A program made the translations under genes and the position numbers. Of a DNA stretch of 60,591 nucleotides, positions 24,552-46,397 are shown piece by piece. The notes beneath the pieces are model-generated. The model was not told the origin of the DNA, searched no databases, and saw only the letters and a program-made list of their open reading frames with translations. Numbering within the stretch: the first letter of the stretch is position 1; each line of letters begins with the position of its first letter. The DNA is taken from assembly GCA_001819335.1 (NCBI GenBank), contig MHMH01000006.1:1-60591 (forward strand), given 5' to 3'. This stretch comes from Candidatus Nealsonbacteria bacterium RIFCSPLOWO2_01_FULL_43_32 (lineage in GTDB: Bacteria > Patescibacteriota > Minisyncoccia > Minisyncoccales > MHMH01).

Positions 24552-25994
24552 TCAAATTATAGCACTCCTGATTATTTTTGTCAATATGGCAGGGTCAGCC
24601 TTGCCTCTGGTTTGGGCCATAGCCTGGCCGATGAGAAACTGGAGAGCGTTTTGTTTGCCGTTTTTATAGTCTTCAATTGCTTTGGGATTTTTAGCAATGA
24701 CTTCCTGAACCGCCTGCTCGATTTCTTTCTCATTAGTGATTTGAGCCAAGCCCTTTTCCCGGATGATATGGCTAGGATCAGCTCCGCTTTTCAACATCTC
24801 TTCCAGCACCACCTTGGCGATTTTTGAAGAGATATCCCCTCTTTCAATCAAGCCAATGAAGTCGGCAAAATTATCCGGAGAAATTAAAAAGTTTTTATCC
24901 TTGATTGAGCTCCCCTTCAAGAGGCCCTGCAAATCGCTGATCAAATAATTGGCGGCCAGTTTAACCAGCCTTAAAAGCTTCTCGGGCGCCAGACGGGCTG
25001 GAAACTCGCTGATGATTTTTTCAAAGTATTCGCCCAGGTCTTTATGATAAATAAGAATCTCGACATTGTTTTCTTCGATGCCGTATTCCCTGCGCAGTCG
25101 GGCTCTTCTTTTCTGCGGGAGTTCGGGCATTTCAGCTCTGATCCCGTCGACTAAAATTTTGGCGAGGTGGAGCGGAGGCAGATCGGGCTCTGGAAAATAG
25201 CGGTAATCGTGCGCCTCTTCCTTTGCCCGCTGGGAAAAGGTTATCTCTTTGACGTCGTGCCAGCCCCGGGTCTCTTGGATGACTTTTTTGCCGGCCCTGA
25301 GCAGTTTCTCCTGGCGCTCAATTTCAAAATTAACTCCCCTTTCCACCGAGCGAAAAGAATTCAGATTTTTAATCTCTACTTTAGTGCCTAATTTAGAACC
25401 CGAGGATAAAGAAATATTCACCTCAACCCTCATCTGCCCTTTTTCCATGTCAGCGTCGGACACGTCCAAATAGTGCATAATCAGATGCAGTTCTTGGGCA
25501 AAAGCCCTGGCTTCTTGGGCCGAGGCAAGATCCGGCTCGGTGACTAATTCCATTAAAGGAATGCCGGCCCGGTTGAAATCAACCAAAGAATAATCAGCGC
25601 CTTCGGGGTGGATGAGCTTGCCCGTGTCTTCCTCCAGGTGGATTTCCCTGATGCGTACCTTCTTGCCCCCTATCTCCAGATAGCCGTTCTTGCATAGCGG
25701 CCGGTAAAGCTGGCTAATCTGATAGCCTTTGGGCAGATCGGGATAAAAATAGTTTTTCCGGTCAAACTGAGAATGCTTTGAAATCTGGCAATTGAGAGCC
25801 AGCCCTGTTTTAATGACTTTTCTTAAAGCCTCCTCGTTAATGACCGGCAAGGTACCGGGCTGGGCCGTGCAAACAGGGCAGATGTTGACGTTGGGCTGTT
25901 TTTCATCTGGATCATTCAAACAAGAACAAAACATTTTGCTCTTGGTTTTCAATTCCACGTGGATTTCCAGGCCAATGGCTGGCTGATAGCTCAT
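24552..25994 (-). CDS. gatB: Asp/Glu-tRNA(Asn/Gln) amidotransferase subunit B
   Basis: MSYQPAIGLEIHVELKT...KMFC start; 480 aa; C-terminal YqeY-like tail. Confidence 0.95.
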   Translation of the reverse strand: MSYQPAIGLEIHVELKTKSKMFCSCLNDPDEKQPNVNICPVCTAQPGTLPVINEEALRKVIKTGLALNCQISKHSQFDRKNYFYPDLPKGYQISQLYRPLCKNGYLEIGGKKVRIREIHLEEDTGKLIHPEGADYSLVDFNRAGIPLMELVTEPDLASAQEARAFAQELHLIMHYLDVSDADMEKGQMRVEVNISLSSGSKLGTKVEIKNLNSFRSVERGVNFEIERQEKLLRAGKKVIQETRGWHDVKEITFSQRAKEEAHDYRYFPEPDLPPLHLAKILVDGIRAEMPELPQKRRARLRREYGIEENNVEILIYHKDLGEYFEKIISEFPARLAPEKLLRLVKLAANYLISDLQGLLKGSSIKDKNFLISPDNFADFIGLIERGDISSKIAKVVLEEMLKSGADPSHIIREKGLAQITNEKEIEQAVQEVIAKNPKAIEDYKNGKQNALQFLIGQAMAQTRGKADPAILTKIIRSAII

Positions 25995-26653
25995 TTATTT
26001 GCTTCGTTAATGATTTCCACGCCCGAGCTGGTGCCGATGATATCAGCTCCGGCTTCAACCATCATCTCCAAATCAGCCAGGGTTCTCACCCCGCCCGCAG
26101 CCTTCACCAATAAGCCGGGCGCTGACTCTTTCATAATTCTCAAGTGCTTGGCCTTCTCTGGCAGTTCTGAATGGTCCAAGGGGTCGTTAAGCGTGGCTGT
26201 TTTAACGCAAATGGCGCCCGCCTCCTTAACCATCTGGGAAGCTTTTTTGATTTCTTCGTCGGTCAGATAGCCAGAGCCGATAATCACCTTAGTGGGGGCA
26301 ACCTGGCAGACGGCTTTCAAATCCTCTAAAACATCGTCGTACCGACCGTTCTTAAAAGCATCAATTTGCATTACCACGTCAATCTCATCCGTGCCGTCTG
26401 CTTTAGCCTTTTGAGCCATTTTAATCCTTTCTTTGGTGGTGCTGGTACCGGTGGGTTCGTCTACTAATGTAATCACCTTAATACCGGTGCCTTTGAGGCA
26501 TTCTTTGACTAATTTGGTGTGCTCTGGCAAAACGCAAAGACCCCTGAAGCCGTATTTCTTGGTTTCTTCGCAAACCTCTTCCATTTTTGGGTCGCTCGCG
26601 CCTTTTTTCAAAAATGTCTGATCAATAATTTTGGCAATATCCATATTATTCAA
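25991..26653 (-). CDS. deoC: Deoxyribose-phosphate aldolase family protein
   Basis: IDQTFL start motif. Schiff-base region ICVKTAT. VKAAGGVRT near the C-terminus. Confidence 0.8.
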   Translation of the reverse strand: MNNMDIAKIIDQTFLKKGASDPKMEEVCEETKKYGFRGLCVLPEHTKLVKECLKGTGIKVITLVDEPTGTSTTKERIKMAQKAKADGTDEIDVVMQIDAFKNGRYDDVLEDLKAVCQVAPTKVIIGSGYLTDEEIKKASQMVKEAGAICVKTATLNDPLDHSELPEKAKHLRIMKESAPGLLVKAAGGVRTLADLEMMVEAGADIIGTSSGVEIINEANK

Positions 26654-26759
26654 TTTTAACAGGTTTACCTCAAAAGAAAAGAGGCCTCTTTTTAAGAAGC
26701 CTCTTTTGATTTATTATAGCGGGCGGTGCGCCGCCCGATATTATTGAGCATTCTGCTCA

Positions 26760-28208
26760 CTATAATGAATCGCTGTTTTCGCCGCCGTGGTCTTGAATGT
26801 ATTTTGAGTTATTCTTCAGGGCAAACTCTGCTTTCATCAGCTCTGAGCCCAGGTAAGCAGCATGGGGAATCTGGGAAACGTAGAAAATCAGCTGGTCTAA
26901 AAGTTCTTGAGCACCCTTTCCTTGCCACTTTAGATTAACCGGGTCAGCGGTGCTGTAAACTTTAATGAATCCGCCAGACACCTCAATCACAAAATTTCCT
27001 CTCGGATCCCAGGCACACTGAAGCTTGGGGTTATCTTTTAGAATCTTCTTGGCTTCCTCCCAGTTTCTTTCATAAATATGGGCTGAGGAGGAAATCGTAA
27101 CGATGGAACCCCGGCTCAATTTTAATCCGGGATTTTTTCGGTTCACTTCTTCGATGATTAAATCCTGCAGGCCTAAAATTCCAAAAGCATTTTCCGGCCA
27201 GGCCAGGAACATATCGTTGGAACGGATATAGACGGTCAGGAAAAGCTTGTCTTTTTGGACCAAAACCTGGAACAGGTCCAAGCACGGCGGACTTTCGCTG
27301 CCGTGATCAAGTGCGACATTCCAGGTTGAAGCCACGCCCCTTCTGGAGTAAGGAGTTTTGGCAATAAGATCGATGATTTCCTTAATTTGATCAATGCCGC
27401 CATGGTTTCTCAATCTTTTGCCATAAGTATATTCCGAACCTTCGGCTTCTTTGGGCGTCGTAATCGTCGGGATGTAGTCTTTGATCTGGTCTTTGGTTAA
27501 AGAAAGGTATCGAGGAAGGTATGGATTGCTCATATCCTCTTCCTCCACCACCGTCACCAAATCCACCAGCTCTTTCTGCCGCTCGCCGTACTGGGAGCCC
27601 TTCACATTCCCAAAAAGCATAATATTCTTCAAGATGTCAATCCAGCACTCCGCAACCTTGCTTCTTCGCACCACAAAACCCGCTCTTTCTGAAGGCAATT
27701 CCAGATTCTCCGTCTTCTGGGGCTCGGGGAAAATAAAGGTTTCGTATGGCCGGAGACCCTCTTTAAGGTTTTCGGATATAGCTTGCTGAATTTTCAAGGG
27801 ATCGTTCTCTCCTATTAAATCAACGGCTTTAACCCTGGAACGAAATAGTGCTATTTTTTCAATAGGAATTTCTTTTTCTATCCTGGCTTGTCCGGAGCCG
27901 ATGATAAAATGGTTCTCGTCCACTCCGTTATCAACAAGATTTAATAAAGCCTTGCTGCTTTTAGTTTCCTCAATCGTCCCCTCGTTGCCGCACAGAACCA
28001 ACCTGTCAAGATAGGGGTGGGCCAAGACATTTCTAATGATGGACGAAACGCCCAGGTCCCGACTGTAGAGCTGACCTACCGCTGCATAAGTGTTTTTATC
28101 CAGCCCTGCAGTTATTAATTCCTTGCGGGTCCAGTGGCAAACCACCCCGACATTGGAATTTAAGTTTCCGAGAGTCAAAAGTTCTTTGTATTTTATAGGC
28201 CAATCCAT
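26760..28208 (-). CDS. Fusion of an MtrA-like/DUF4346-like N-terminal domain with an archaeal-type thymidylate synthase (ThyA) domain
   Basis: C-terminal half: YGKRLRNHGGIDQI, SRRGVASTWNV, PPC (catalytic Cys), IRSNDMFLAWPEN, SSSAHIYERN. N-terminal half: WP...LGNLNSNVGVV...LVLCGNEG...NGVD resembles MtrA. Confidence 0.75.
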   Translation of the reverse strand: MDWPIKYKELLTLGNLNSNVGVVCHWTRKELITAGLDKNTYAAVGQLYSRDLGVSSIIRNVLAHPYLDRLVLCGNEGTIEETKSSKALLNLVDNGVDENHFIIGSGQARIEKEIPIEKIALFRSRVKAVDLIGENDPLKIQQAISENLKEGLRPYETFIFPEPQKTENLELPSERAGFVVRRSKVAECWIDILKNIMLFGNVKGSQYGERQKELVDLVTVVEEEDMSNPYLPRYLSLTKDQIKDYIPTITTPKEAEGSEYTYGKRLRNHGGIDQIKEIIDLIAKTPYSRRGVASTWNVALDHGSESPPCLDLFQVLVQKDKLFLTVYIRSNDMFLAWPENAFGILGLQDLIIEEVNRKNPGLKLSRGSIVTISSSAHIYERNWEEAKKILKDNPKLQCAWDPRGNFVIEVSGGFIKVYSTADPVNLKWQGKGAQELLDQLIFYVSQIPHAAYLGSELMKAEFALKNNSKYIQDHGGENSDSL

Positions 28209-28222
28209 AAGCTAATCCTCCT

Positions 28223-28840
28223 TTACAAATTTAATTTTAAATGAACATGTGATTTCATCTCTTCGGCAATCTCATTAATTGGTCTCTCTCCTCCAATTAT
28301 GTAAACATTTTTAATATGGTTTGGCAAGATAGCATAAGTTTGCCAAACCTTCTCCAGTTTCTGCGTTTCTTCAAAAAGAGTTTGAGCGCTGCCTCTCTTT
28401 TTAATCCTTTCCAGACAAATCTCTGGCCTGACTTTTAAAATAAATGTCAAATCTGGCACTAAAAATGCGCTGTTCAATTCCATGAGCCAGGCCAAATCCA
28501 ATCCATCGGACACGCCGTAGGCAAAAGTAGAGAAAAAATAGCGGTCGGAGATCACGATGTTATTTTGTTGCAGCACCGGAATGATTAAATTTTCCAAGTG
28601 CTCTTTTCTGTCTTGAATGAATAACTCCTGCAAATACACGGGTTCAACCAGTGTATTTTTGTCCAAAACTTGACGAATTTCTTTTCCGGCTTGAGAGTCT
28701 TTGGTCGGTTCTTTGGTTAAAATGACCTTAAACCCTTCTGAAACTAAAAAATCCTTTAAAAGATTGGCTTGCGTTGACTGGCCGGAACCGTCCAATCCCT
28801 CAAACGCAATAAATTTGCCAAGATAAGGATTTTTAATCAT
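28223..28840 (-). CDS. tmk: Thymidylate kinase
   Basis: P-loop FEGLDGSGQSTQ; 205 aa. Confidence 0.9.
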   Translation of the reverse strand: MIKNPYLGKFIAFEGLDGSGQSTQANLLKDFLVSEGFKVILTKEPTKDSQAGKEIRQVLDKNTLVEPVYLQELFIQDRKEHLENLIIPVLQQNNIVISDRYFFSTFAYGVSDGLDLAWLMELNSAFLVPDLTFILKVRPEICLERIKKRGSAQTLFEETQKLEKVWQTYAILPNHIKNVYIIGGERPINEIAEEMKSHVHLKLNL

Positions 28841-29331
28841 TGATTTTTATATTCTTCCGTCGTATTTTCTATAATGATCAGCTCTACGTTAGCATCATTA
28901 AATAATTTTACGGATAATCCATCGGCATGGTATCTTTTCTGGGCCACCACTTTTTTGACACCCACCCTGACAATTCTCATGGCGCAGTTATAACAAGGAA
29001 CCATTTTACAATAAAGCGTGGCTCCTTCAATTTTGATGCCATCCTTGGCGCATTGCAAGATGGCGTTTTCTTCGGCGTGCAAGGTTCGCACGCAGTGCTG
29101 AGACTGATTGCCCGCTTCATCGATAACCGTCCTCATCATGTGGCCGACTTCATCGCAATGCGGCTGTCCCGGAGGGGCTCCCACATAGCCCGTGGCTAAA
29201 ATAGTACGGTGCGGACTGACAATAACGGCTCCGCTACGACCCCGGCCGCAAGTGGCTCTTTTCCCGATTGGTTCTATCAGCCCCAAAAAATATTCATCCC
29301 AGTTTGGGCGTATAATTTTTTCTTCTGCCAT
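28837..29331 (-). CDS. dCMP deaminase (ComEB-type cytidine/deoxycytidylate deaminase)
   Basis: HAEENAI and PCYNCAMRI zinc motifs; 164 aa. Confidence 0.85.
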   Translation of the reverse strand: MAEEKIIRPNWDEYFLGLIEPIGKRATCGRGRSGAVIVSPHRTILATGYVGAPPGQPHCDEVGHMMRTVIDEAGNQSQHCVRTLHAEENAILQCAKDGIKIEGATLYCKMVPCYNCAMRIVRVGVKKVVAQKRYHADGLSVKLFNDANVELIIIENTTEEYKNQ

Positions 29332-39195: not shown

Positions 39196-39450
39196 CTATA
39201 AGATGGACTTTACCTTTAAATAACCTTCGATGAGTTTTTTCTTAGACGATAAAACCTCGTCTTTCCTCATCACGTTCTCCATAGACAGGGGATGGCTCGT
39301 GGCTTCAACCCCGGACACGTCCACCCTCTTGAGTTTTTCAACGTAATCTAAAATCGAAGAAAGTTCTTTTTGATACTTGCCTATTTCTTTCTCGCTCAGC
39401 CCCAAACGGGCCAACTGAGCAATATGTTTTACCGCTTCTTTAGTGATCAT
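39196..39450 (-). CDS. gatC: Glu-tRNA(Gln) amidotransferase subunit C
   Basis: 84 aa. AQLARLGLSEKE motif. Upstream of gatA. Confidence 0.85.
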   Translation of the reverse strand: MITKEAVKHIAQLARLGLSEKEIGKYQKELSSILDYVEKLKRVDVSGVEATSHPLSMENVMRKDEVLSSKKKLIEGYLKVKSIL

Positions 39451-40499
39451 TTGGGTGGCTCTAATTCCTCGGTCTCGGCCAGCACCTCTCTCAACTCGTC
39501 AATATTCTCTAAAACCAGGCCCGCGCCTCGGGCTACGGCCGTGACCGGGTCTTCAATAATTTTGGCGGGAATTTTCGTTTCTTTGGCGATCAAGATATCT
39601 AGTCCTTTCAGCAGGCTGCCCCCGCCGGCGAGGTGAATACCTTTCCCCATGACATCGGCCAAGAGCTCGGGCGGCGTTTCCTCCACCGCTGTCTTGATGG
39701 TGTCGACGATTTGTCTGACGGATTTTTCCATGGCTCTTCTGATATCCTCGTCAGAAACCATAATTTCTTCGGGCAAGCCGGTCACAAAGTTCCTGCCTCT
39801 CAGCGGCATGGCTTTTTTTTCTTTTAAGGGGTAAGCCGAACCAATACCGATTTTAACGTCTTCAGCTGTACGCTCACCGATTAATAACTTGTATTCTTCC
39901 TGGGCAAAATAGATGATGTCTTCGTTAAGCTTGTCCCCGGCCACTTTAAGGGTCTTGGACAAAACTATGCCGCCCAGAGAAATGACCACGACCTGGGTCG
40001 TACCTCCGCCAATATCCACAACGAAATTACCGCCAGCTTCCTGAACGGGCAGCCTGGCCCCGATGGCCGCGGCCATGGGCTGCTCAATTAAATAAACTTC
40101 TCTGGCTCCGGCATTTTTGGCCGCGTCTTGAACGGCTTTTTTCTCCACTTCGGTCACTCCGCAAGGCACGCCGATGATCACCCTAGGCTTGGGACTGAAT
40201 AAAAACTTGCGGCGCTGAATTTTCTCGATAAAGTAGCGCAGCATTTGCTCGGTTACTTCAAAATCAGAAATCACCCCCTTGACCAGGGGACGGGTAGCCA
40301 CGATATGAGCCGGAGTCCGGCCCACCATTTTTTTAGCCTCTTCGCCAATAGCTAGAACCTGACCGGTTTTCTGGTTGACGGCCACCACCGAAGGCTCAAA
40401 AATGACAATGCCCCGCCCCTTAACGTAAACGAGCGTGGTGGCCGTGCCCAAATCAATGGCAATATCTTGGTATAAATAAGAAAAAAGTTTATCAAACAT
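39447..40499 (-). CDS. mreB: Rod-shape actin homologue MreB (paralog 1)
   Basis: DLGTATTLVY, VIGVPCGVTEVE and VDIGGGTTQV motifs. Confidence 0.9.
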   Translation of the reverse strand: MFDKLFSYLYQDIAIDLGTATTLVYVKGRGIVIFEPSVVAVNQKTGQVLAIGEEAKKMVGRTPAHIVATRPLVKGVISDFEVTEQMLRYFIEKIQRRKFLFSPKPRVIIGVPCGVTEVEKKAVQDAAKNAGAREVYLIEQPMAAAIGARLPVQEAGGNFVVDIGGGTTQVVVISLGGIVLSKTLKVAGDKLNEDIIYFAQEEYKLLIGERTAEDVKIGIGSAYPLKEKKAMPLRGRNFVTGLPEEIMVSDEDIRRAMEKSVRQIVDTIKTAVEETPPELLADVMGKGIHLAGGGSLLKGLDILIAKETKIPAKIIEDPVTAVARGAGLVLENIDELREVLAETEELEPPK

Positions 40500-43456: not shown

Positions 43457-44223
43457 CTATCGGGGTCGAACCCCGATAGCCTACTCTATGGCGACTTTTT
43501 CGAAATCAGCTAATTCTTTTTTGAATTCTAACCAACTATCTACTGCTTCCTTGCAACCTTTCACCCCGCCCATTGTTTCAGCTAAAAACTCTCGGCTGGT
43601 TAAAGACGGAAAATTTTTAACTCCTAAATAATCTGGATAGCTTGACCACCTGTAATCTCTCGCGAAATTAATTACTTTTTTCGCATCTTCAATTCCTCTT
43701 TCCTTCCAACCAGGAAAGATAATGGCCACCGGATTAGTATGAACGTAAACAAAAATTGTGTAAAGTTGTTTGTCGTTCTCGATATGGACCAACCTGTATT
43801 TTCCTTGGAATAGGTGTCCGACTCTTTTGTGTCTCTGATTATAATAGACTCCGTAACCTCCGCCAATCTTTTTCATAAACTGACTGATTCCGCCATCTCT
43901 TATCTGGCGAAGTAATAGGTGAACATGATTAGGCATTAAACAAAAGGCTAGAATCTCTACCAACATCTCCCTAACTCCCCTCTTATAGCTATCGGGGTCG
44001 GACCCCGTTAGTTTTGATTTTTGGAAGAAACGGAAATTAGAAGAAACGGGGCTTGTGTCATTGAACTCAAATAAATCATGAATCATGCGAAAGTAATCTT
44101 TTTCATCACGAAAAAGCTTCAGATTTTCTACTGTCCGAATAACGGTATGATATATTTCTCCATTAACTAACGGCGGTCTTTTGCTTGGCATATTAGCGTA
44201 TTAGCGGGGTCGGACCCCGATAG
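43457..44223 (-). mobile_element. RAYT/IS200-like unit 2 with cognate hairpins (two flanking plus one internal)
   Basis: CTATCGGGGT-CGA-ACCCCGATAG at 43457-79; CGGGGT-CGG-ACCCCG at 44205-23; internal copy at 43989-44011. Confidence 0.7.
43481..44191 (-). CDS. REP-associated tyrosine transposase-like protein, paralog 2
   Basis: HUH motif MPNHVHLL; Tyr motif VYVHTNPV. Confidence 0.8.
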   Translation of the reverse strand: MPSKRPPLVNGEIYHTVIRTVENLKLFRDEKDYFRMIHDLFEFNDTSPVSSNFRFFQKSKLTGSDPDSYKRGVREMLVEILAFCLMPNHVHLLLRQIRDGGISQFMKKIGGGYGVYYNQRHKRVGHLFQGKYRLVHIENDKQLYTIFVYVHTNPVAIIFPGWKERGIEDAKKVINFARDYRWSSYPDYLGVKNFPSLTSREFLAETMGGVKGCKEAVDSWLEFKKELADFEKVAIE

Positions 44224-45386: not shown

Positions 45387-46397
45387 TTATCTTTTAGACA
45401 TGATGCTCTTTTTATAAACATCGAGGTTTTCCAAAACAATGCCCGTGCCCTTGGCCACGCATAATAAAGGCTCATCGGCCATAAAACAAGGCACGCCTGT
45501 AGCTTGAGCAATCAAAGCGTCAAGGTTGCGCACCAAAGCGCCTCCGCCCGAAAGCACCATGCCCTGGTCCATAATATCGGCTGACAACTCGGGCGGCGTA
45601 TCTCTCAAGACCTGCTTAATCACCTGGATGATTTCAGAGAGCGTGTCGGTCATGGCCGAACAGACTTCGTTGGAAGAGATCTTAACGGTCCGGGGCAGGC
45701 CTGAAAGCAAATCACGGCCGCGAATCTCCATTTTCTTCTCTTCCTTTTCCGGCAAGGCTGTGCCGATTTTTATTTTAATGTCTTCGGCCGTCTGATCGCC
45801 CACTGCCAAATTGTATTTTTTCTTAATATAATCGGCAATGGCTAAATTCATTCTATCGCCGGCCATCCTGATAGAGCTTACTGTCACGATGCCCCCCAGC
45901 GAAATCACCGCCACTTCGGCCGTACCGCCGCCGATATCAACAATCAAATGGCCGGAGCAGGCATTAATCGGAATATTAGCGCCGATGGCCGCCAGAATCG
46001 GCTCTTTGGCCACGAAAACTTCTTTGGCCCCGGCATTAAGGCCCGCTTCAATCACGGCCCGCCTTTCTGTTGAAGTGATGCCAGCCGGCACCGCGATCAT
46101 CAGCTCTGGTTTCAAAAACTGCAAAGGCCCCCTGGTTTTATTGATAAAATGCTTAATCATGGCTTGAGTGACCCGGAAATCAGCGATAACGCCGTCTTTC
46201 AGCGGCCGATAAACCCTGATGGTATCGGGCGTCCTACCGATCATGGCTTTGGCTGCCTCGCCCACGGCTAAAATGCTGTTCTCGTCGAGCGAAACAGCCA
46301 CGACTGAAGGCTCCTGCAAAACCACTCCTTTGCCTGGGACGAAAACCAAAGAGTTGCAAGTGCCCAAATCAATGCCGATTTTTCTCACAAACATCAT
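45387..46397 (-). CDS. mreB: MreB paralog 2
   Basis: IDLGTCNSLVF and VDIGGGTAEV motifs. 336 aa. Confidence 0.9.
   Translation of the reverse strand: MMFVRKIGIDLGTCNSLVFVPGKGVVLQEPSVVAVSLDENSILAVGEAAKAMIGRTPDTIRVYRPLKDGVIADFRVTQAMIKHFINKTRGPLQFLKPELMIAVPAGITSTERRAVIEAGLNAGAKEVFVAKEPILAAIGANIPINACSGHLIVDIGGGTAEVAVISLGGIVTVSSIRMAGDRMNLAIADYIKKKYNLAVGDQTAEDIKIKIGTALPEKEEKKMEIRGRDLLSGLPRTVKISSNEVCSAMTDTLSEIIQVIKQVLRDTPPELSADIMDQGMVLSGGGALVRNLDALIAQATGVPCFMADEPLLCVAKGTGIVLENLDVYKKSIMSKR

What the first reader, a model, noticed from the sequence alone, without database searches (positions are those of the whole stretch)
26760..28208. Thymidylate synthase fused to an MtrA-like (DUF4346-type) domain
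Residues from about 200 to 482 carry the ThyA catalytic blocks, including the PPC cysteine. The first 190 or so residues resemble the soluble domain of methanogen MtrA and its DUF4346 relatives (WP..LGNLNS.VGVV, LVLCGNEG, NGVD), but lack the cobalt-ligating His. MtrA-type domains are associated with pterin and methyl-transfer chemistry. The fusion could mean this ThyA draws its one-carbon unit from a non-folate carrier or partner, which is relevant for organisms with minimal cofactor biosynthesis.
Basis: partly seen in the sequence, partly recalled or inferred. Interest (0 to 1): 0.65.

Follow-up and report, generated by a model that had tools for sequence, protein, structure and literature searches.

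The report
Thymidylate synthase fused to corrinoid-relay remnants
This gene encodes a real three-domain thymidylate synthase whose two extra domains are, in related microbes, separate vitamin-B12-type partner proteins encoded next to the enzyme, which points to an undescribed way some archaea and ultra-small bacteria make the DNA base thymine.

Summary
The ORF at 26760..28208 (-) is real and encodes 482 aa. The fusion is not an artefact. The identical protein lies on 14 independent contigs, and the architecture recurs in hundreds of CPR and DPANN proteins.

It sits in a dCMP deaminase-Tmk-ThyA operon and keeps every ThyA catalytic residue tested, so it most likely makes dTMP.

In other CPR, DPANN and Altiarchaeota genomes, MtrA, DUF4346 and ThyA are separate but adjacent genes. 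One such split form occupies the same chromosomal slot in another Nealsonbacteria genome. The split MtrA keeps all cobalamin-contact residues (His84 in 118/120). One Altiarchaeota operon reads MtrA-MtrH-ThyA-DUF4346. Thermoplasmata have the same cassette with a MetE-like methyltransferase in place of ThyA. This suggests an ancestral corrinoid methyl relay feeding ThyA.

The fused form has lost His84 (deleted in 138/138), Glu54, Asn55 and the GAIPF motif. It probably works as a classical pterin-dependent ThyA, with its former partners retained as an accessory module. No paper found describes this link.

Verdict: new variant of a known kind; interest about 0.7.

The parts
26760..28208 (-). Whole ORF, 482 aa plus stop: MtrA-like domain, ThyA core and DUF4346 in one polypeptide
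   Evidence: Continuous ORF. Three Pfam domains above their gathering scores. Identical protein on 14 independent contigs. AF2 model with pLDDT 91.1 and pTM 0.84.
27762..28205 (-). MtrA-fold domain (aa 2-149) without the cobalt-ligand network
   Evidence: PF04208 at E=4e-14. PDB 5L8X/5LAA at E about 3e-10. His84 and Ile85 are deleted in 76/76 plus 62/62 family members. Glu54 becomes K/N/R, Asn55 becomes D/E, and the DMB-stacking Tyr and the GAIPF motif are lost. Only S/T53, Gly57 and Asn64 are kept.
27675..27761 (-). Conserved linker (aa 150-178) with the F160-P161 ... P172-S-E motif
   Evidence: Nearly invariant F160, P161 and P172. pLDDT about 75.
27024..27674 (-). Archaeal (methanogen-type) ThyA catalytic core (aa 179-395)
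   Evidence: TIGR03283 at 156 bits over aa 179-385; PF00303 at E=5.6e-21. Foldseek matches ThyA, DHFR-TS and dCMP hydroxymethylase at E about 1e-12. Invariant in the family: Y262, R289, C309, R329, S330, D332, H377 and Y379; R290 and N340 are at least 90% conserved. They align to the YG, SRR, PC, RS.D, N and H.Y blocks of solved ThyA.
27282..27284 (-). Codon of the catalytic nucleophile Cys309 (PPC motif)
   Evidence: Aligns with the catalytic Cys in 'PPCH' of T4 thymidylate synthase 1TIS. Invariant in 76 homologues.
26790..27008 (-). PterinBD-DUF4346 domain (aa 401-473), beta3-alpha2, with motifs DPRG ... H-A-x-Y-L-G-x-E-L-x-K-A-E ... Y-x-Q-D
   Evidence: PF14251 at E=6.5e-15. Domain-only AF2 model at pLDDT 84. 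No PDB fold match, best E about 1. As conserved as the ThyA core: 22% of columns at >=0.9. 2217 representative clusters in the library.
28217..28223 (-). Shine-Dalgarno AAGGAGG, 8 nt upstream of the ATG and overlapping the tmk stop codon
   Evidence: Sequence read directly.
28223..28840 (-). Thymidylate kinase gene directly upstream (14-nt gap), same operon
   Evidence: PF02223 at E=3.7e-42. Tmk is fused to the same three-domain protein in P0072 and L131.
28837..29331 (-). dCMP deaminase gene, overlapping tmk by 4 nt, same operon
   Evidence: PF00383 at E=2.2e-21. dCMP deaminase is fused to the three-domain protein in P0212.
25991..26653 (-). Deoxyribose-phosphate aldolase (DeoC) gene downstream; marks the conserved syntenic slot
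   Evidence: TIGR00126 at 162.7 bits, above the 117.3 cut-off. The same DeoC-GatB flank follows the split MtrA~DUF4346 + ThyA pair in Nealsonbacteria L013.

Best explanation
The gene encodes a single-chain thymidylate synthase of the archaeal ThyA clade. It converts dUMP, supplied by the dCMP deaminase encoded two genes upstream, into dTMP, which the thymidylate kinase encoded directly upstream phosphorylates.

The ThyA core is flanked by an N-terminal MtrA-fold domain and a C-terminal DUF4346 domain. These two domains are the fused descendants of proteins that, in other CPR bacteria, DPANN archaea and Altiarchaeota, are encoded as separate genes next to ThyA. In those split systems MtrA keeps every cobalamin-contact residue. 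In one operon it is accompanied by MtrH, the methyl-pterin:corrinoid methyltransferase. The ancestral unit was therefore most likely a corrinoid methyl relay serving ThyA.

In the fused lineage to which the window belongs, MtrH is absent from every neighbourhood examined and the corrin and cobalt contacts (His84, Glu54, Asn55, the stacking Tyr, GAIPF) have been lost. I therefore infer that this enzyme no longer uses a corrinoid. It most likely performs the classical ThyA reaction, taking a methylene group and a hydride from a methylene-tetrahydropterin bound at the canonical site. The MtrA-like and DUF4346 domains would be retained as a non-catalytic, still-constrained accessory module for cofactor handling, docking or stability.

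Shown: the domain composition, the loss of the ligand residues, the operon context, and the split/fused relationship.
Inferred: dTMP synthase activity, the absence of a corrinoid, the direct use of a methylene-pterin, and the role of the accessory domains.
For: Architecture and reality.

A compact three-domain model with pLDDT 91 and pTM 0.84.

ThyA catalytic and pterin-site residues are conserved:
- Invariant: Y262, R289, C309, R329, S330, D332, H377 and Y379.
- At least 90% conserved: R290 and N340.

dTMP-pathway context:
- The window reads dCMP deaminase-Tmk-fusion with 4-nt and 14-nt junctions and a strong Shine-Dalgarno site.
- Kerfeldbacteria, Nealsonbacteria and Woesearchaeota loci carry dCMP deaminase, dUTPase/DCD or Tmk next to the fusion.
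- Four-domain fusions exist with Tmk (P0072, L131) and with dCMP deaminase (P0212).

Split forms:
- The two-domain MtrA~DUF4346 family gave 313 hits.
- A ThyA gene lies next to it in 21 of 23 CPR/DPANN loci and in a further archaeal contig.
- Nealsonbacteria L013 has the split pair in the same NusG-L11 ... DeoC-GatB slot as the window fusion.
- Altiarchaeota L081 reads MtrA-MtrH-ThyA-DUF4346 with overlapping start and stop codons. Its ThyA scores best with the HMM built from the fused family.

Cobalamin contacts, as defined in PMC4915002:
- They are kept in the split family: Glu54 120/120, Asn55 120/120, His84 118/120, Gly109 120/120, Pro112 119/120.
- They are lost in the fused family: His84 and Ile85 are deleted in 138/138.

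No MtrH was found in any of about 90 fused-type loci or in the window.
Against: - No enzymology exists for any member.
- TIGR03283 scores 156 bits, below its 174.55 equivalog cut-off.
- DUF4346 is as conserved as the ThyA core, and the MtrA-like domain is still under constraint. Mean pairwise identities are 0.44 (DUF4346), 0.47 (ThyA) and 0.39 (MtrA-like).
- The residues matching MtrA's nucleotide-tail and phosphate pocket (S/T53, Gly57, Asn64) survive. Some ligand may therefore still be bound, and a His-off corrinoid cannot be excluded.
- The MtrH link to ThyA rests on a single locus (L081).
- Model coordinates and PAE were not available, so the domain interfaces are unknown.
- Some genomes carry a second ThyA-family paralogue next to the fusion (L001, L009). 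The division of labour between the two is therefore not certain.
Confidence: 0.55

Rival explanations
1. The fused enzyme is still corrinoid-dependent. The MtrA-like domain binds a cobamide in a His-off mode, perhaps with help from the invariant His449 of DUF4346. ThyA then transfers the methyl group of methyl-Co(III) directly to the C5 of Cys-activated dUMP. No dihydropterin is produced and no DHFR is needed.
For: - Split relatives keep a complete corrinoid signature and sit beside ThyA.
- The same MtrA-MtrH-X-DUF4346 cassette holds either a MetE-like methyltransferase or ThyA.
- Core MetE enzymes are predicted to take methyl groups from MtrA (PMC7857596).
- The fused domain keeps the phosphate and nucleotide-pocket residues, and DUF4346 is fully conserved.
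Against: - All residues that touch the corrin ring or the cobalt are lost or deleted in 138/138 members. According to PMC4915002, His84 is the main anchor of the corrin.
- No MtrH or other methyl-loading enzyme lies near any fused gene.
- The pterin-binding Asp (D332) stays invariant.
Confidence: 0.17
2. One reading: the accessory domains adapt ThyA to a non-folate one-carbon carrier (H4MPT or a sarcinapterin-like pterin scavenged from a host) by binding its extended tail.
For: - The ThyA core belongs to the methanogen-type clade, whose cofactor specificity is unresolved (PMC9012536, PMC9931769).
- DUF4346 also occurs fused to Pterin_bind (DHPS-like, TIGR00284) proteins of archaea.
- The retained pocket residues of the MtrA-like domain contact a ribose-phosphate in MtrA.
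- The closest named relatives are Nealsonbacteria. From my own knowledge, not tested here, some of these are reported as episymbionts of methanogens.
Against: - MtrA itself binds a corrinoid, not a pterin (PMC4915002).
- The same architecture is common in many CPR bacteria. From general knowledge, these use folate-dependent enzymes.
- No H4MPT gene was seen in any neighbourhood, and nothing in the window speaks to cofactor type.
Confidence: 0.13
3. The MtrA-like plus DUF4346 module is a non-homologous dihydropterin reductase. The protein would then be a functional analogue of protozoan DHFR-TS that recycles its own cofactor.
For: - No DHFR gene lies in any of the neighbourhoods inspected.
- The N-terminal domain is a Rossmann-type fold in front of TS, the same order as in DHFR-TS.
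- DUF4346 accompanies two enzymes that release 7,8-dihydropterins, ThyA and DHPS-like proteins.
Against: - There is no nucleotide-binding (GxGxxG) or flavin motif.
- There is no Pfam DHFR hit.
- The Foldseek alignments to DHFR-TS superpose only the TS part (RMSD about 21 Å, TM 0.35).
- The module's relatives are corrinoid proteins in methyl-transfer operons.
- Absence of DHFR was assessed only within +/-10 kb.
Confidence: 0.07
4. The protein is not a thymidylate synthase. It is another ThyA-fold pyrimidine-modifying enzyme, such as a dUMP or dCMP hydroxymethylase.
For: - Foldseek also matches phage dCMP hydroxylase and hydroxymethylase structures (9IQU at TMt 0.76, 1B49).
- Some genomes carry a second ThyA-family gene next to it.
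Against: - The dUMP-specifying Asn (N340) is at least 90% conserved rather than the Asp of dCMP enzymes.
- The operon and the fusions involve dCMP deaminase and Tmk.
- The adjacent paralogues, not the fusion, are the ones lacking the SRR phosphate-binding pair.
Confidence: 0.05
5. The fusion is an assembly or frameshift artefact joining two or three genes.
For: None was found. Split versions of the same components do exist in other genomes.
Against: - The identical 482-aa protein lies on 14 contigs from different samples and assemblers.
- Hundreds of full-length homologues share the same order.
- The domain order MtrA-ThyA-DUF4346 differs from the split order MtrA~DUF4346 then ThyA, so it cannot arise by reading through adjacent genes of that type.
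- The linker is conserved.
Confidence: 0.01

Closest known systems
Methanogen/archaeal-type thymidylate synthase ThyA (NCBIfam TIGR03283; EC 2.1.1.45 family PF00303)
   Same: It is the best-scoring family for aa 179-385 (156 bits). The short roughly 200-aa core lacks the long C-terminal lid of bacterial ThyA. All catalytic blocks are present: YG, SRR, PC, RS.D, N and H.Y.
   Different: The score is below the equivalog cut-off of 174.55. Here the core is embedded between two extra domains that TIGR03283 proteins do not contain. No member of either group has been characterised with a defined cofactor (PMC9931769, PMC9012536).
MtrA, the corrinoid-binding subunit of N5-methyl-H4MPT:CoM methyltransferase, and its cytoplasmic homologues (PF04208; PDB 5L8X, 5LAA; MtxA)
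   Same: It shares the Rossmann-type fold with clear sequence homology (E about 1e-10) over aa 3-150. The scaffold motifs LCG and NGVD are conserved, as are the tail-pocket residues S/T53, Gly57 and Asn64.
   Different: His84 and Ile85 are deleted. Glu54, Asn55, the stacking Tyr and the GAIPF-x-EN meander are lost. There is no transmembrane anchor, no mtr operon and no MtrH nearby.
Split MtrA~DUF4346 + ThyA gene pairs of CPR and DPANN, and the Altiarchaeota MtrA-MtrH-ThyA-DUF4346 operon
   Same: The same three components are present. The dTMP-pathway neighbours are the same (DCD or dCMP deaminase, Tmk, DeoC). In Nealsonbacteria the chromosomal slot is the same.
   Different: In the split forms MtrA keeps the full cobalamin signature. 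The CPR/DPANN split ThyA has a 34-aa insert with two invariant Cys, KTND in place of RSND, and variable H207. The gene order is MtrA~DUF4346 then ThyA, not MtrA-ThyA-DUF4346.
Corrinoid-dependent methyl relays: MetH, and core methionine synthases (MesA/MesB) predicted to accept methyl groups from MtrA or CoFeSP (PMC7857596)
   Same: The Thermoplasmata operon MtrA-MtrH-Meth_synt_2-DUF4346 has the same cassette as the Altiarchaeota ThyA operon, with the acceptor enzyme swapped. The modular logic is pterin methyltransferase, corrinoid carrier, then acceptor enzyme.
   Different: No corrinoid-dependent thymidylate synthase is known. The window protein lacks both the corrinoid ligands and MtrH.
Bifunctional DHFR-TS of protozoa and plants
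   Same: An alpha/beta cofactor-related domain is fused N-terminally to a TS domain in one chain. These are the top Foldseek hits over the full length.
   Different: Only the TS part superposes (RMSD about 21 Å overall). The N-domain is MtrA-like, not DHFR, and there is no PF00186 hit.

Membership tests
ThyA thymidylate synthase (PF00303) | Profile match above the curated threshold | tested here: met
   PF00303 at 75.3 bits against a cut-off of 24.3. Foldseek matches many ThyA structures at E about 1e-12.
ThyA thymidylate synthase (PF00303) | Catalytic Cys nucleophile in the P-C motif | tested here: met
   Cys309 aligns with the catalytic Cys of T4 TS. It is invariant in 76 homologues.
ThyA thymidylate synthase (PF00303) | dUMP phosphate-binding Arg residues (E. 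coli R126/R127, R166) and the dUMP-specifying Asn177 | tested here: met
   R289, R329 and S330 are invariant. R290 and N340 are at least 90% conserved.
ThyA thymidylate synthase (PF00303) | Pterin-binding Asp (E. coli D169) and the H207/Y209 and Y94 blocks | tested here: met
   D332, H377, Y379 and Y262 are invariant.
ThyA thymidylate synthase (PF00303) | Catalyses dUMP + methylene-tetrahydropterin -> dTMP + dihydropterin | not testable with these tools
   This needs an enzyme assay or thyA complementation. The only support here is context: the dCMP deaminase-Tmk operon and fusions.
Methanogen-type ThyA equivalog (TIGR03283) | Score above the equivalog cut-off | tested here: not met
   156.2 bits against a cut-off of 174.55. 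It is the closest family, but the protein is not a strict member.
MtrA corrinoid protein (PF04208 / TIGR01111) | Profile match above the Pfam threshold | tested here: met
   PF04208 at 53.1 bits against a cut-off of 25. TIGR01111 reaches only 47 bits against 249.
MtrA corrinoid protein (PF04208 / TIGR01111) | Cobalt-ligating His84 with the Glu54 hydrogen-bond partner | tested here: not met
   The His84 and Ile85 positions are deleted in 138/138 fused proteins. Glu54 is replaced by K/N/R.
MtrA corrinoid protein (PF04208 / TIGR01111) | Meander motif 109-GAIPF-x-x-EN, and the Asn55 and Tyr contacts to the corrin and DMB | tested here: not met
   G109 and P112 are not conserved, Asn55 becomes D/E, and the Tyr becomes L/I/V. 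The contacts are as defined in PMC4915002.
MtrA corrinoid protein (PF04208 / TIGR01111) | Encoded with MtrH or the mtr operon | tested here: not met
   No MtrH hit in the window or in any fused-type locus.
MtrA corrinoid protein (PF04208 / TIGR01111) | Binds a cobamide | not testable with these tools
   This needs reconstitution and UV-vis or EPR spectroscopy.
PterinBD-DUF4346 (PF14251) | Profile match above threshold and the family motifs DP.G ... H ... LG.EL.KAE ... Y.QD | tested here: met
   56.1 bits against a cut-off of 29.6. D401, G404, H449, E456 and L457 are invariant; P402, R403, K459, A460, E461, Y470, Q472 and D473 are at least 90% conserved. The same motifs occur in the standalone DUF4346 proteins of L081 and L090.
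Bifunctional DHFR-TS | N-terminal domain homologous to dihydrofolate reductase | tested here: not met
   There is no DHFR Pfam hit. Foldseek alignments to DHFR-TS superpose only the TS domain.

The most novel reading that the evidence does not exclude
ThyA enzymes of this clade are the acceptor module of a cobamide methyl relay: methyl-pterin to MtrH, to Co-MtrA with DUF4346 as its accessory domain, then to dUMP. This would hold for the split forms and possibly still for the fused form, through a His-off cobamide. It would be a B12-dependent thymidylate synthase that produces no dihydrofolate and needs no DHFR, a third route to dTMP beside classical ThyA and flavin-dependent ThyX.
Probability: 0.2. 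Interest if true: 0.92.

Novelty: new variant of a known kind. Interest (0 to 1): 0.72.

Why it matters
Thymidylate synthesis is essential, and only two enzyme solutions are known, ThyA and ThyX.

Archaeal-type ThyA has never been characterised with a defined one-carbon donor (PMC9931769, PMC9012536). The results here give a concrete and testable lead. In CPR, DPANN and Altiarchaeota this ThyA clade is genetically locked to an MtrA-type corrinoid protein and to DUF4346, either as neighbouring genes or as this fusion.

- If the relay is real, it is a new B12-dependent route to thymine that bypasses dihydrofolate reductase.
- If it is not, the fusion still defines two obligatory accessory domains of unknown role on an essential enzyme of organisms with minimal cofactor metabolism.
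- It also assigns a first functional context to DUF4346, which has 2217 representative clusters, and to the 'orphan' MtrA/MtrH homologues outside methanogens. Their role is called unclear in PMC9635834.
- Their presence is used to infer methanogenesis in ancestral archaea (PMC13473441). MtrA homologues that serve dTMP or methionine synthesis would weaken that inference.

Tried and rejected
- **Artefact hypothesis:** rejected.
- **MtrA and DUF4346 as homologous domains:** rejected by hhalign, probability 0.3%.
- **DUF4346 fold assignment:** the domain-only AF2 model (pLDDT 84) gave no PDB match, with best E about 1. Sequence search of the PDB gave only chance-level GAPDH hits.
- **Whole-model Foldseek:** it returned only ThyA-type hits. 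The DHFR-TS alignments are not structural matches of the N-domain.
- **DUF4346 as a single-sequence query in the word-indexed protein search:** it returned only 3 fragments of the same family, so the search was largely wasted.
- **Literature:** searches for DUF4346, PterinBD, MtrA-like with pterin, thymidylate synthase with MtrA, thymidylate synthase with corrinoid, Nealsonbacteria with thymidylate, and MtrA with DPANN found no description of this link. Two older papers could not be opened.
- **Survey of folate, H4MPT or cobalamin genes:** only the 60-kb window and +/-10-kb flanks were reachable, and none were found. Genome-wide presence of folA, mtrH or btu genes could not be tested.
- **First metagenome scan with the Altiarchaeota ThyA:** it found nothing. 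The second scan, with an alignment, recovered mostly fused forms and no further MtrH-linked operon. The MtrA-MtrH-ThyA-DUF4346 arrangement therefore rests on one locus.
- **Domain interfaces:** not analysed, because model coordinates and PAE are not exposed.
- **Free-living bacterial MtrA~DUF4346 proteins (NF002128-like):** they have no ThyA, MtrH or MetE neighbours. One Paenibacillus example sits next to a P-type ATPase and a transposase, which was uninformative.
Full report
**1. The observation**

The minus-strand ORF 26760..28208 is uninterrupted and encodes 482 aa. A strong Shine-Dalgarno sequence (AAGGAGG) lies 8 nt upstream of the ATG and overlaps the stop codon of the preceding thymidylate kinase gene.

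Pfam finds three domains, all above their gathering scores:
- MtrA (PF04208), aa 2-149, E=4e-14.
- Thymidylat_synt (PF00303), best stretch aa 260-395, E=5.6e-21.
- PterinBD-DUF4346 (PF14251), aa 401-473, E=6.5e-15.

NCBIfam places aa 179-385 in the methanogen-type ThyA model TIGR03283. The score is 156 bits, below the equivalog cut-off of 174.55.

ThyA ends near residue 395. DUF4346 is a third, C-terminal domain. A profile-profile comparison finds no relationship between DUF4346 and the MtrA-like domain (probability 0.3%).

**2. It is not an artefact**

- The identical protein is encoded on 14 independently assembled contigs from several groundwater and other samples.
- A database search gives 359 homologues at E<=1e-5. 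Nearly all of the 120 listed carry the same three Pfam domains. The named ones come from Nealsonbacteria (85% identity), Kerfeldbacteria, Pacebacteria, Woesearchaeota, Pacearchaeota and Aenigmarchaeota.
- In a metagenome scan, 63 of 80 loci carry all three domains in one ORF.

An AlphaFold2 model built on 76 homologues is confident and compact, with pLDDT 91.1 and pTM 0.84.

**3. The ThyA core**

Alignments to solved ThyA structures and a 76-sequence family alignment show the following residues. E. coli numbering, from my own knowledge of the family, is given in brackets.
- Invariant: Y262 (Y94), R289 (R126), C309 (the nucleophile C146), R329/S330/D332 (R166/S167/D169), and H377/Y379 (H207/Y209).
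- At least 90% conserved: R290 (R127) and N340 (N177).

Both the dUMP-activating machinery and the pterin-binding Asp are therefore intact. Foldseek matches ThyA, DHFR-TS (through the TS part only) and phage dCMP hydroxymethylases.

**4. Genomic context**

The gene is the last member of a tight dCMP deaminase (28837..29331) - Tmk (28223..28840) - fusion unit. It is followed by DeoC and GatB and preceded by L11 and NusG.

Relatives show the same theme:
- Kerfeldbacteria: dCMP deaminase-kinase-fusion-Tmk-dUTPase.
- Nealsonbacteria: dCMP deaminase-dUTPase-fusion-Tmk.
- Woesearchaeota: Tmk-fusion, then dUTPase.
- An unnamed archaeal-type metagenome contig (L008): dCMP deaminase-fusion.

Four-domain proteins add Tmk (P0072, L131, L134) or dCMP deaminase (P0212) to the same chain. 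This is strong contextual evidence that the product is dTMP. It is inferred, not shown.

**5. The MtrA-like domain**

It is homologous to the structurally characterised MtrA proteins 5L8X and 5LAA (E about 3e-10).

Wagner et al. (PMC4915002) describe how MtrA holds cobalamin:
- Mainly through His84, which is hydrogen-bonded to Glu54 and Ile111.
- Asn55 contacts the corrin.
- A Tyr stacks on the benzimidazole.
- Thr53, Gly57 and Asn64 hold the nucleotide tail.
- 109-GAIPF-x-x-EN is the most conserved motif.

In the fused family:
- The His84-Ile85 positions are deleted in 76/76 database homologues and in 62/62 further metagenome proteins.
- Glu54 is K/N/R, Asn55 is D/E, the Tyr is L/I/V, and G109 and P112 are not conserved.
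- Only S/T53, Gly57 and Asn64 persist.

The domain is still under constraint, with mean pairwise identity 0.39 against 0.47 for ThyA. It is an MtrA fold that has lost what defines MtrA as a corrinoid protein.

**6. DUF4346**

The domain-only model (pLDDT 84, beta3-alpha2) has no counterpart in the PDB. No paper in the library mentions it.

A profile search finds 2217 representative clusters. It is as conserved as the ThyA core in the fused family.

Pfam scans of selected hits and later loci show its company:
- MtrA+DUF4346 two-domain proteins.
- Those same proteins fused to dCTP deaminase (from the precomputed Pfam domains).
- DUF6513-Pterin_bind-DUF4346 proteins, the TIGR00284 'DHPS-like' architecture, which lie next to an MtrA homologue in two loci.
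- Longer bacterial MtrA+DUF4346 proteins (NF002128-like).

**7. The split forms**

The two-domain protein P0251 (MtrA+DUF4346, no ThyA) is encoded 43 bp upstream of a standalone ThyA, on the same strand. A dCTP deaminase follows one small gene further on.

Its family has at least 313 members in DPANN and CPR, including Nealsonbacteria. A scan of species-representative genomes found at least 522 relatives.

My HMM annotation of the fetched loci, backed by Pfam, separates several contexts.

- **(III) CPR and DPANN.** The order is [DCD]-MtrA~DUF4346-ThyA-(Tmk)-(DeoC). ThyA is present in 21 of 23 loci. In Nealsonbacteria L013 the pair occupies the same NusG-L11 ... DeoC-GatB-MiaA slot as the window fusion.
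- **(II) Altiarchaeota L081.** The order is MtrA-MtrH-ThyA-DUF4346 with overlapping start and stop codons, next to a divergent SHMT-like gene (identified by its sequence only; no family scan was run on it). This ThyA scores best with the HMM built from the fused family, and the gene order matches the domain order of the fusion.
- **(I) Thermoplasmata, Methanomassiliicoccales and relatives.** Fourteen loci read MtrA-MtrH-Meth_synt_2(MetE-like)-DUF4346.
- **(V) Diverse free-living bacteria.** MtrA~DUF4346 occurs without these neighbours.

In 120 split-family proteins the cobalamin signature is essentially invariant:
- Glu54 120/120.
- Asn55 120/120.
- His84 118/120.
- Gly109 120/120.
- Pro112 119/120.
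- The stacking Tyr 113/120.

**8. Interpretation**

Contexts I and II differ only in the acceptor enzyme.
- Core MetE enzymes have been predicted to take methyl groups from MtrA (PMC7857596).
- The role of MtrAH outside methanogens is called unclear (PMC9635834).

The simplest reading is that MtrH, MtrA and DUF4346 form a soluble corrinoid methyl relay, and that in some archaea ThyA is its acceptor. That would be a corrinoid-dependent thymidylate synthase, which is not known. I put it at roughly one in three for the split systems.

It rests on gene order only. The MtrH-ThyA link comes from one locus, and the pterin-binding Asp is retained in all ThyA types.

For the window protein the evidence points the other way. 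MtrH is absent from about 90 fused-type neighbourhoods and from the window, and all corrin and cobalt contacts are gone. The ThyA core is the more canonical one: it has RSND and SAHIY, and it lacks the Cys-containing insert of the CPR/DPANN split-type ThyA.

I therefore commit to the following. This is a dTMP-forming ThyA that uses a methylene-tetrahydropterin directly. Its former relay partners are fused on as a constrained accessory module whose role (cofactor-tail binding, docking or stability) is unknown. My confidence in the whole statement is about 0.55. The main rivals are:
- A His-off cobamide still in use (0.17).
- Adaptation to a non-folate pterin (0.13).
- A built-in dihydropterin reductase (0.07).
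- A different ThyA-fold activity (0.05).

**9. Comparison with the known, and novelty**

The protein passes every sequence test for the ThyA family. It fails the defining tests for a functional MtrA (the His84/Glu54 pair, the GAIPF motif, an MtrH partner). It is a typical DUF4346 member. It is not a DHFR-TS.

Databases already hold the architecture under the automatic name 'thymidylate synthase'. I found no paper that describes any of the following:
- The fusion.
- The ThyA-MtrA-DUF4346 gene linkage.
- The contrast between His-containing split forms and His-less fused forms.

Archaeal ThyA biochemistry is acknowledged as unresolved. I rate the finding a new variant of a known kind, with interest 0.72. 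The reasons:
- It is a surprising and well-supported association on an essential enzyme.
- It makes an old open question, the one-carbon donor of archaeal-type ThyA, directly testable.
- It gives DUF4346 and the orphan MtrA homologues a context.

**10. Limits**

- No enzymology exists for any member.
- Whole-genome cofactor inventories could not be made.
- The 60-kb window contains no folate, H4MPT or cobalamin genes.

Noticed in passing
window 31257..35528 (-): The gyrB ORF is 1423 aa and carries Intein_splicing hits over aa 70-602, so it contains an intein. A Nealsonbacteria relative (L013) also has an intein-containing gyrB, whereas L009 and L005 have the normal 645-677 aa gene.
   Followed up: partly
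window 35593..36735 (-); also L009 3800..4942: A 380-aa protein has only the tRNA-synt_2d and FDX-ACB domains. That is the single-chain architecture typical of mitochondrial PheRS rather than the bacterial alpha/beta pair, which Kerfeldbacteria L005 has.
   Followed up: no
L009 12086..12742 (+); L001 11844..12797 (-): A second ThyA-family paralogue (218 aa or 317 aa) lies next to the fusion in some CPR genomes. It keeps the catalytic Cys, the R-S-x-D block and the Asn, but lacks the SRR phosphate-binding pair. Its function is unknown.
   Followed up: partly
L013 6883..7656, L014 7434..8207, L015 7058..7858 and 18 further loci: The split-type ThyA carries a roughly 34-aa insert after YTYYSRLR. 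The insert has a C/H position and two invariant Cys ([C/H]-Y-P-D-C ... G-K-C). This ThyA also has KTND in place of RSND. The insert may be a metal site or a docking site for the corrinoid partner.
   Followed up: partly
L059, L078, L080, L082-L092 (for example L090 3968..6726): Thermoplasmata and Methanomassiliicoccales share a conserved four-gene operon, MtrA-MtrH-Meth_synt_2(MetE-like)-DUF4346. It looks like a soluble corrinoid-dependent methionine synthase system with DUF4346 as a fourth component.
   Followed up: partly
L073 3968..6351; L077 3275..5676; L094 30..1502: DUF6513-Pterin_bind-DUF4346 proteins (the TIGR00284 'DHPS-like' architecture) lie convergent to an MtrA homologue that carries a C-terminal GYF_2 domain in Hydrothermarchaeota. 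Methanotrichaceae has Pterin_bind-DUF4346.
   Followed up: partly
proteins P0146, P0151, P0161 (380-400 aa): These proteins have an MtrA-like domain, a roughly 170-aa middle region and DUF4346. The middle region has no Pfam ThyA hit and no PPC or RSND motifs, so they may be catalytically dead derivatives of the fusion.
   Followed up: no
protein P0124 (786 aa): This protein has an MtrA-like domain followed by two tandem ThyA-DUF4346 units. In the second unit the catalytic Cys position reads Ser.
   Followed up: no
proteins P0370, P0380, P0385 (475-511 aa): dCTP deaminase (DCD) is fused to MtrA~DUF4346 without ThyA. This ties the module to pyrimidine deoxynucleotide metabolism rather than to ThyA alone.
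   Followed up: no
L036-L079 (for example L037 3422..4825, Paenibacillus naphthalenovorans; L052, Chryseobacterium): Free-living bacteria encode longer MtrA~DUF4346 proteins (NF002128-like, with a 110-190 aa N-terminal extension) and no ThyA, MtrH or MetE neighbours. In Paenibacillus the gene follows a P-type ATPase.
   Followed up: partly
window 26720..26737: A perfect 7-bp all-G+C hairpin (CGGGCGG-TGCG-CCGCCCG) lies 23 nt downstream of the fusion's stop codon, in the 106-nt gap before deoC. It may be a terminator or an attenuator.
   Followed up: no
window 43481..44191 (-); 39447..40499 and 45387..46397 (-): The window contains an IS200-like Y1 transposase ORF and two MreB paralogues.
   Followed up: no
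window 28837..29331 compared with L013 5420..5995: Within the same Nealsonbacteria syntenic slot, the fused form comes with dCMP deaminase plus Tmk, while the split form comes with dCTP deaminase (DCD). The route to dUMP co-varies with the type of ThyA system.
   Followed up: partly
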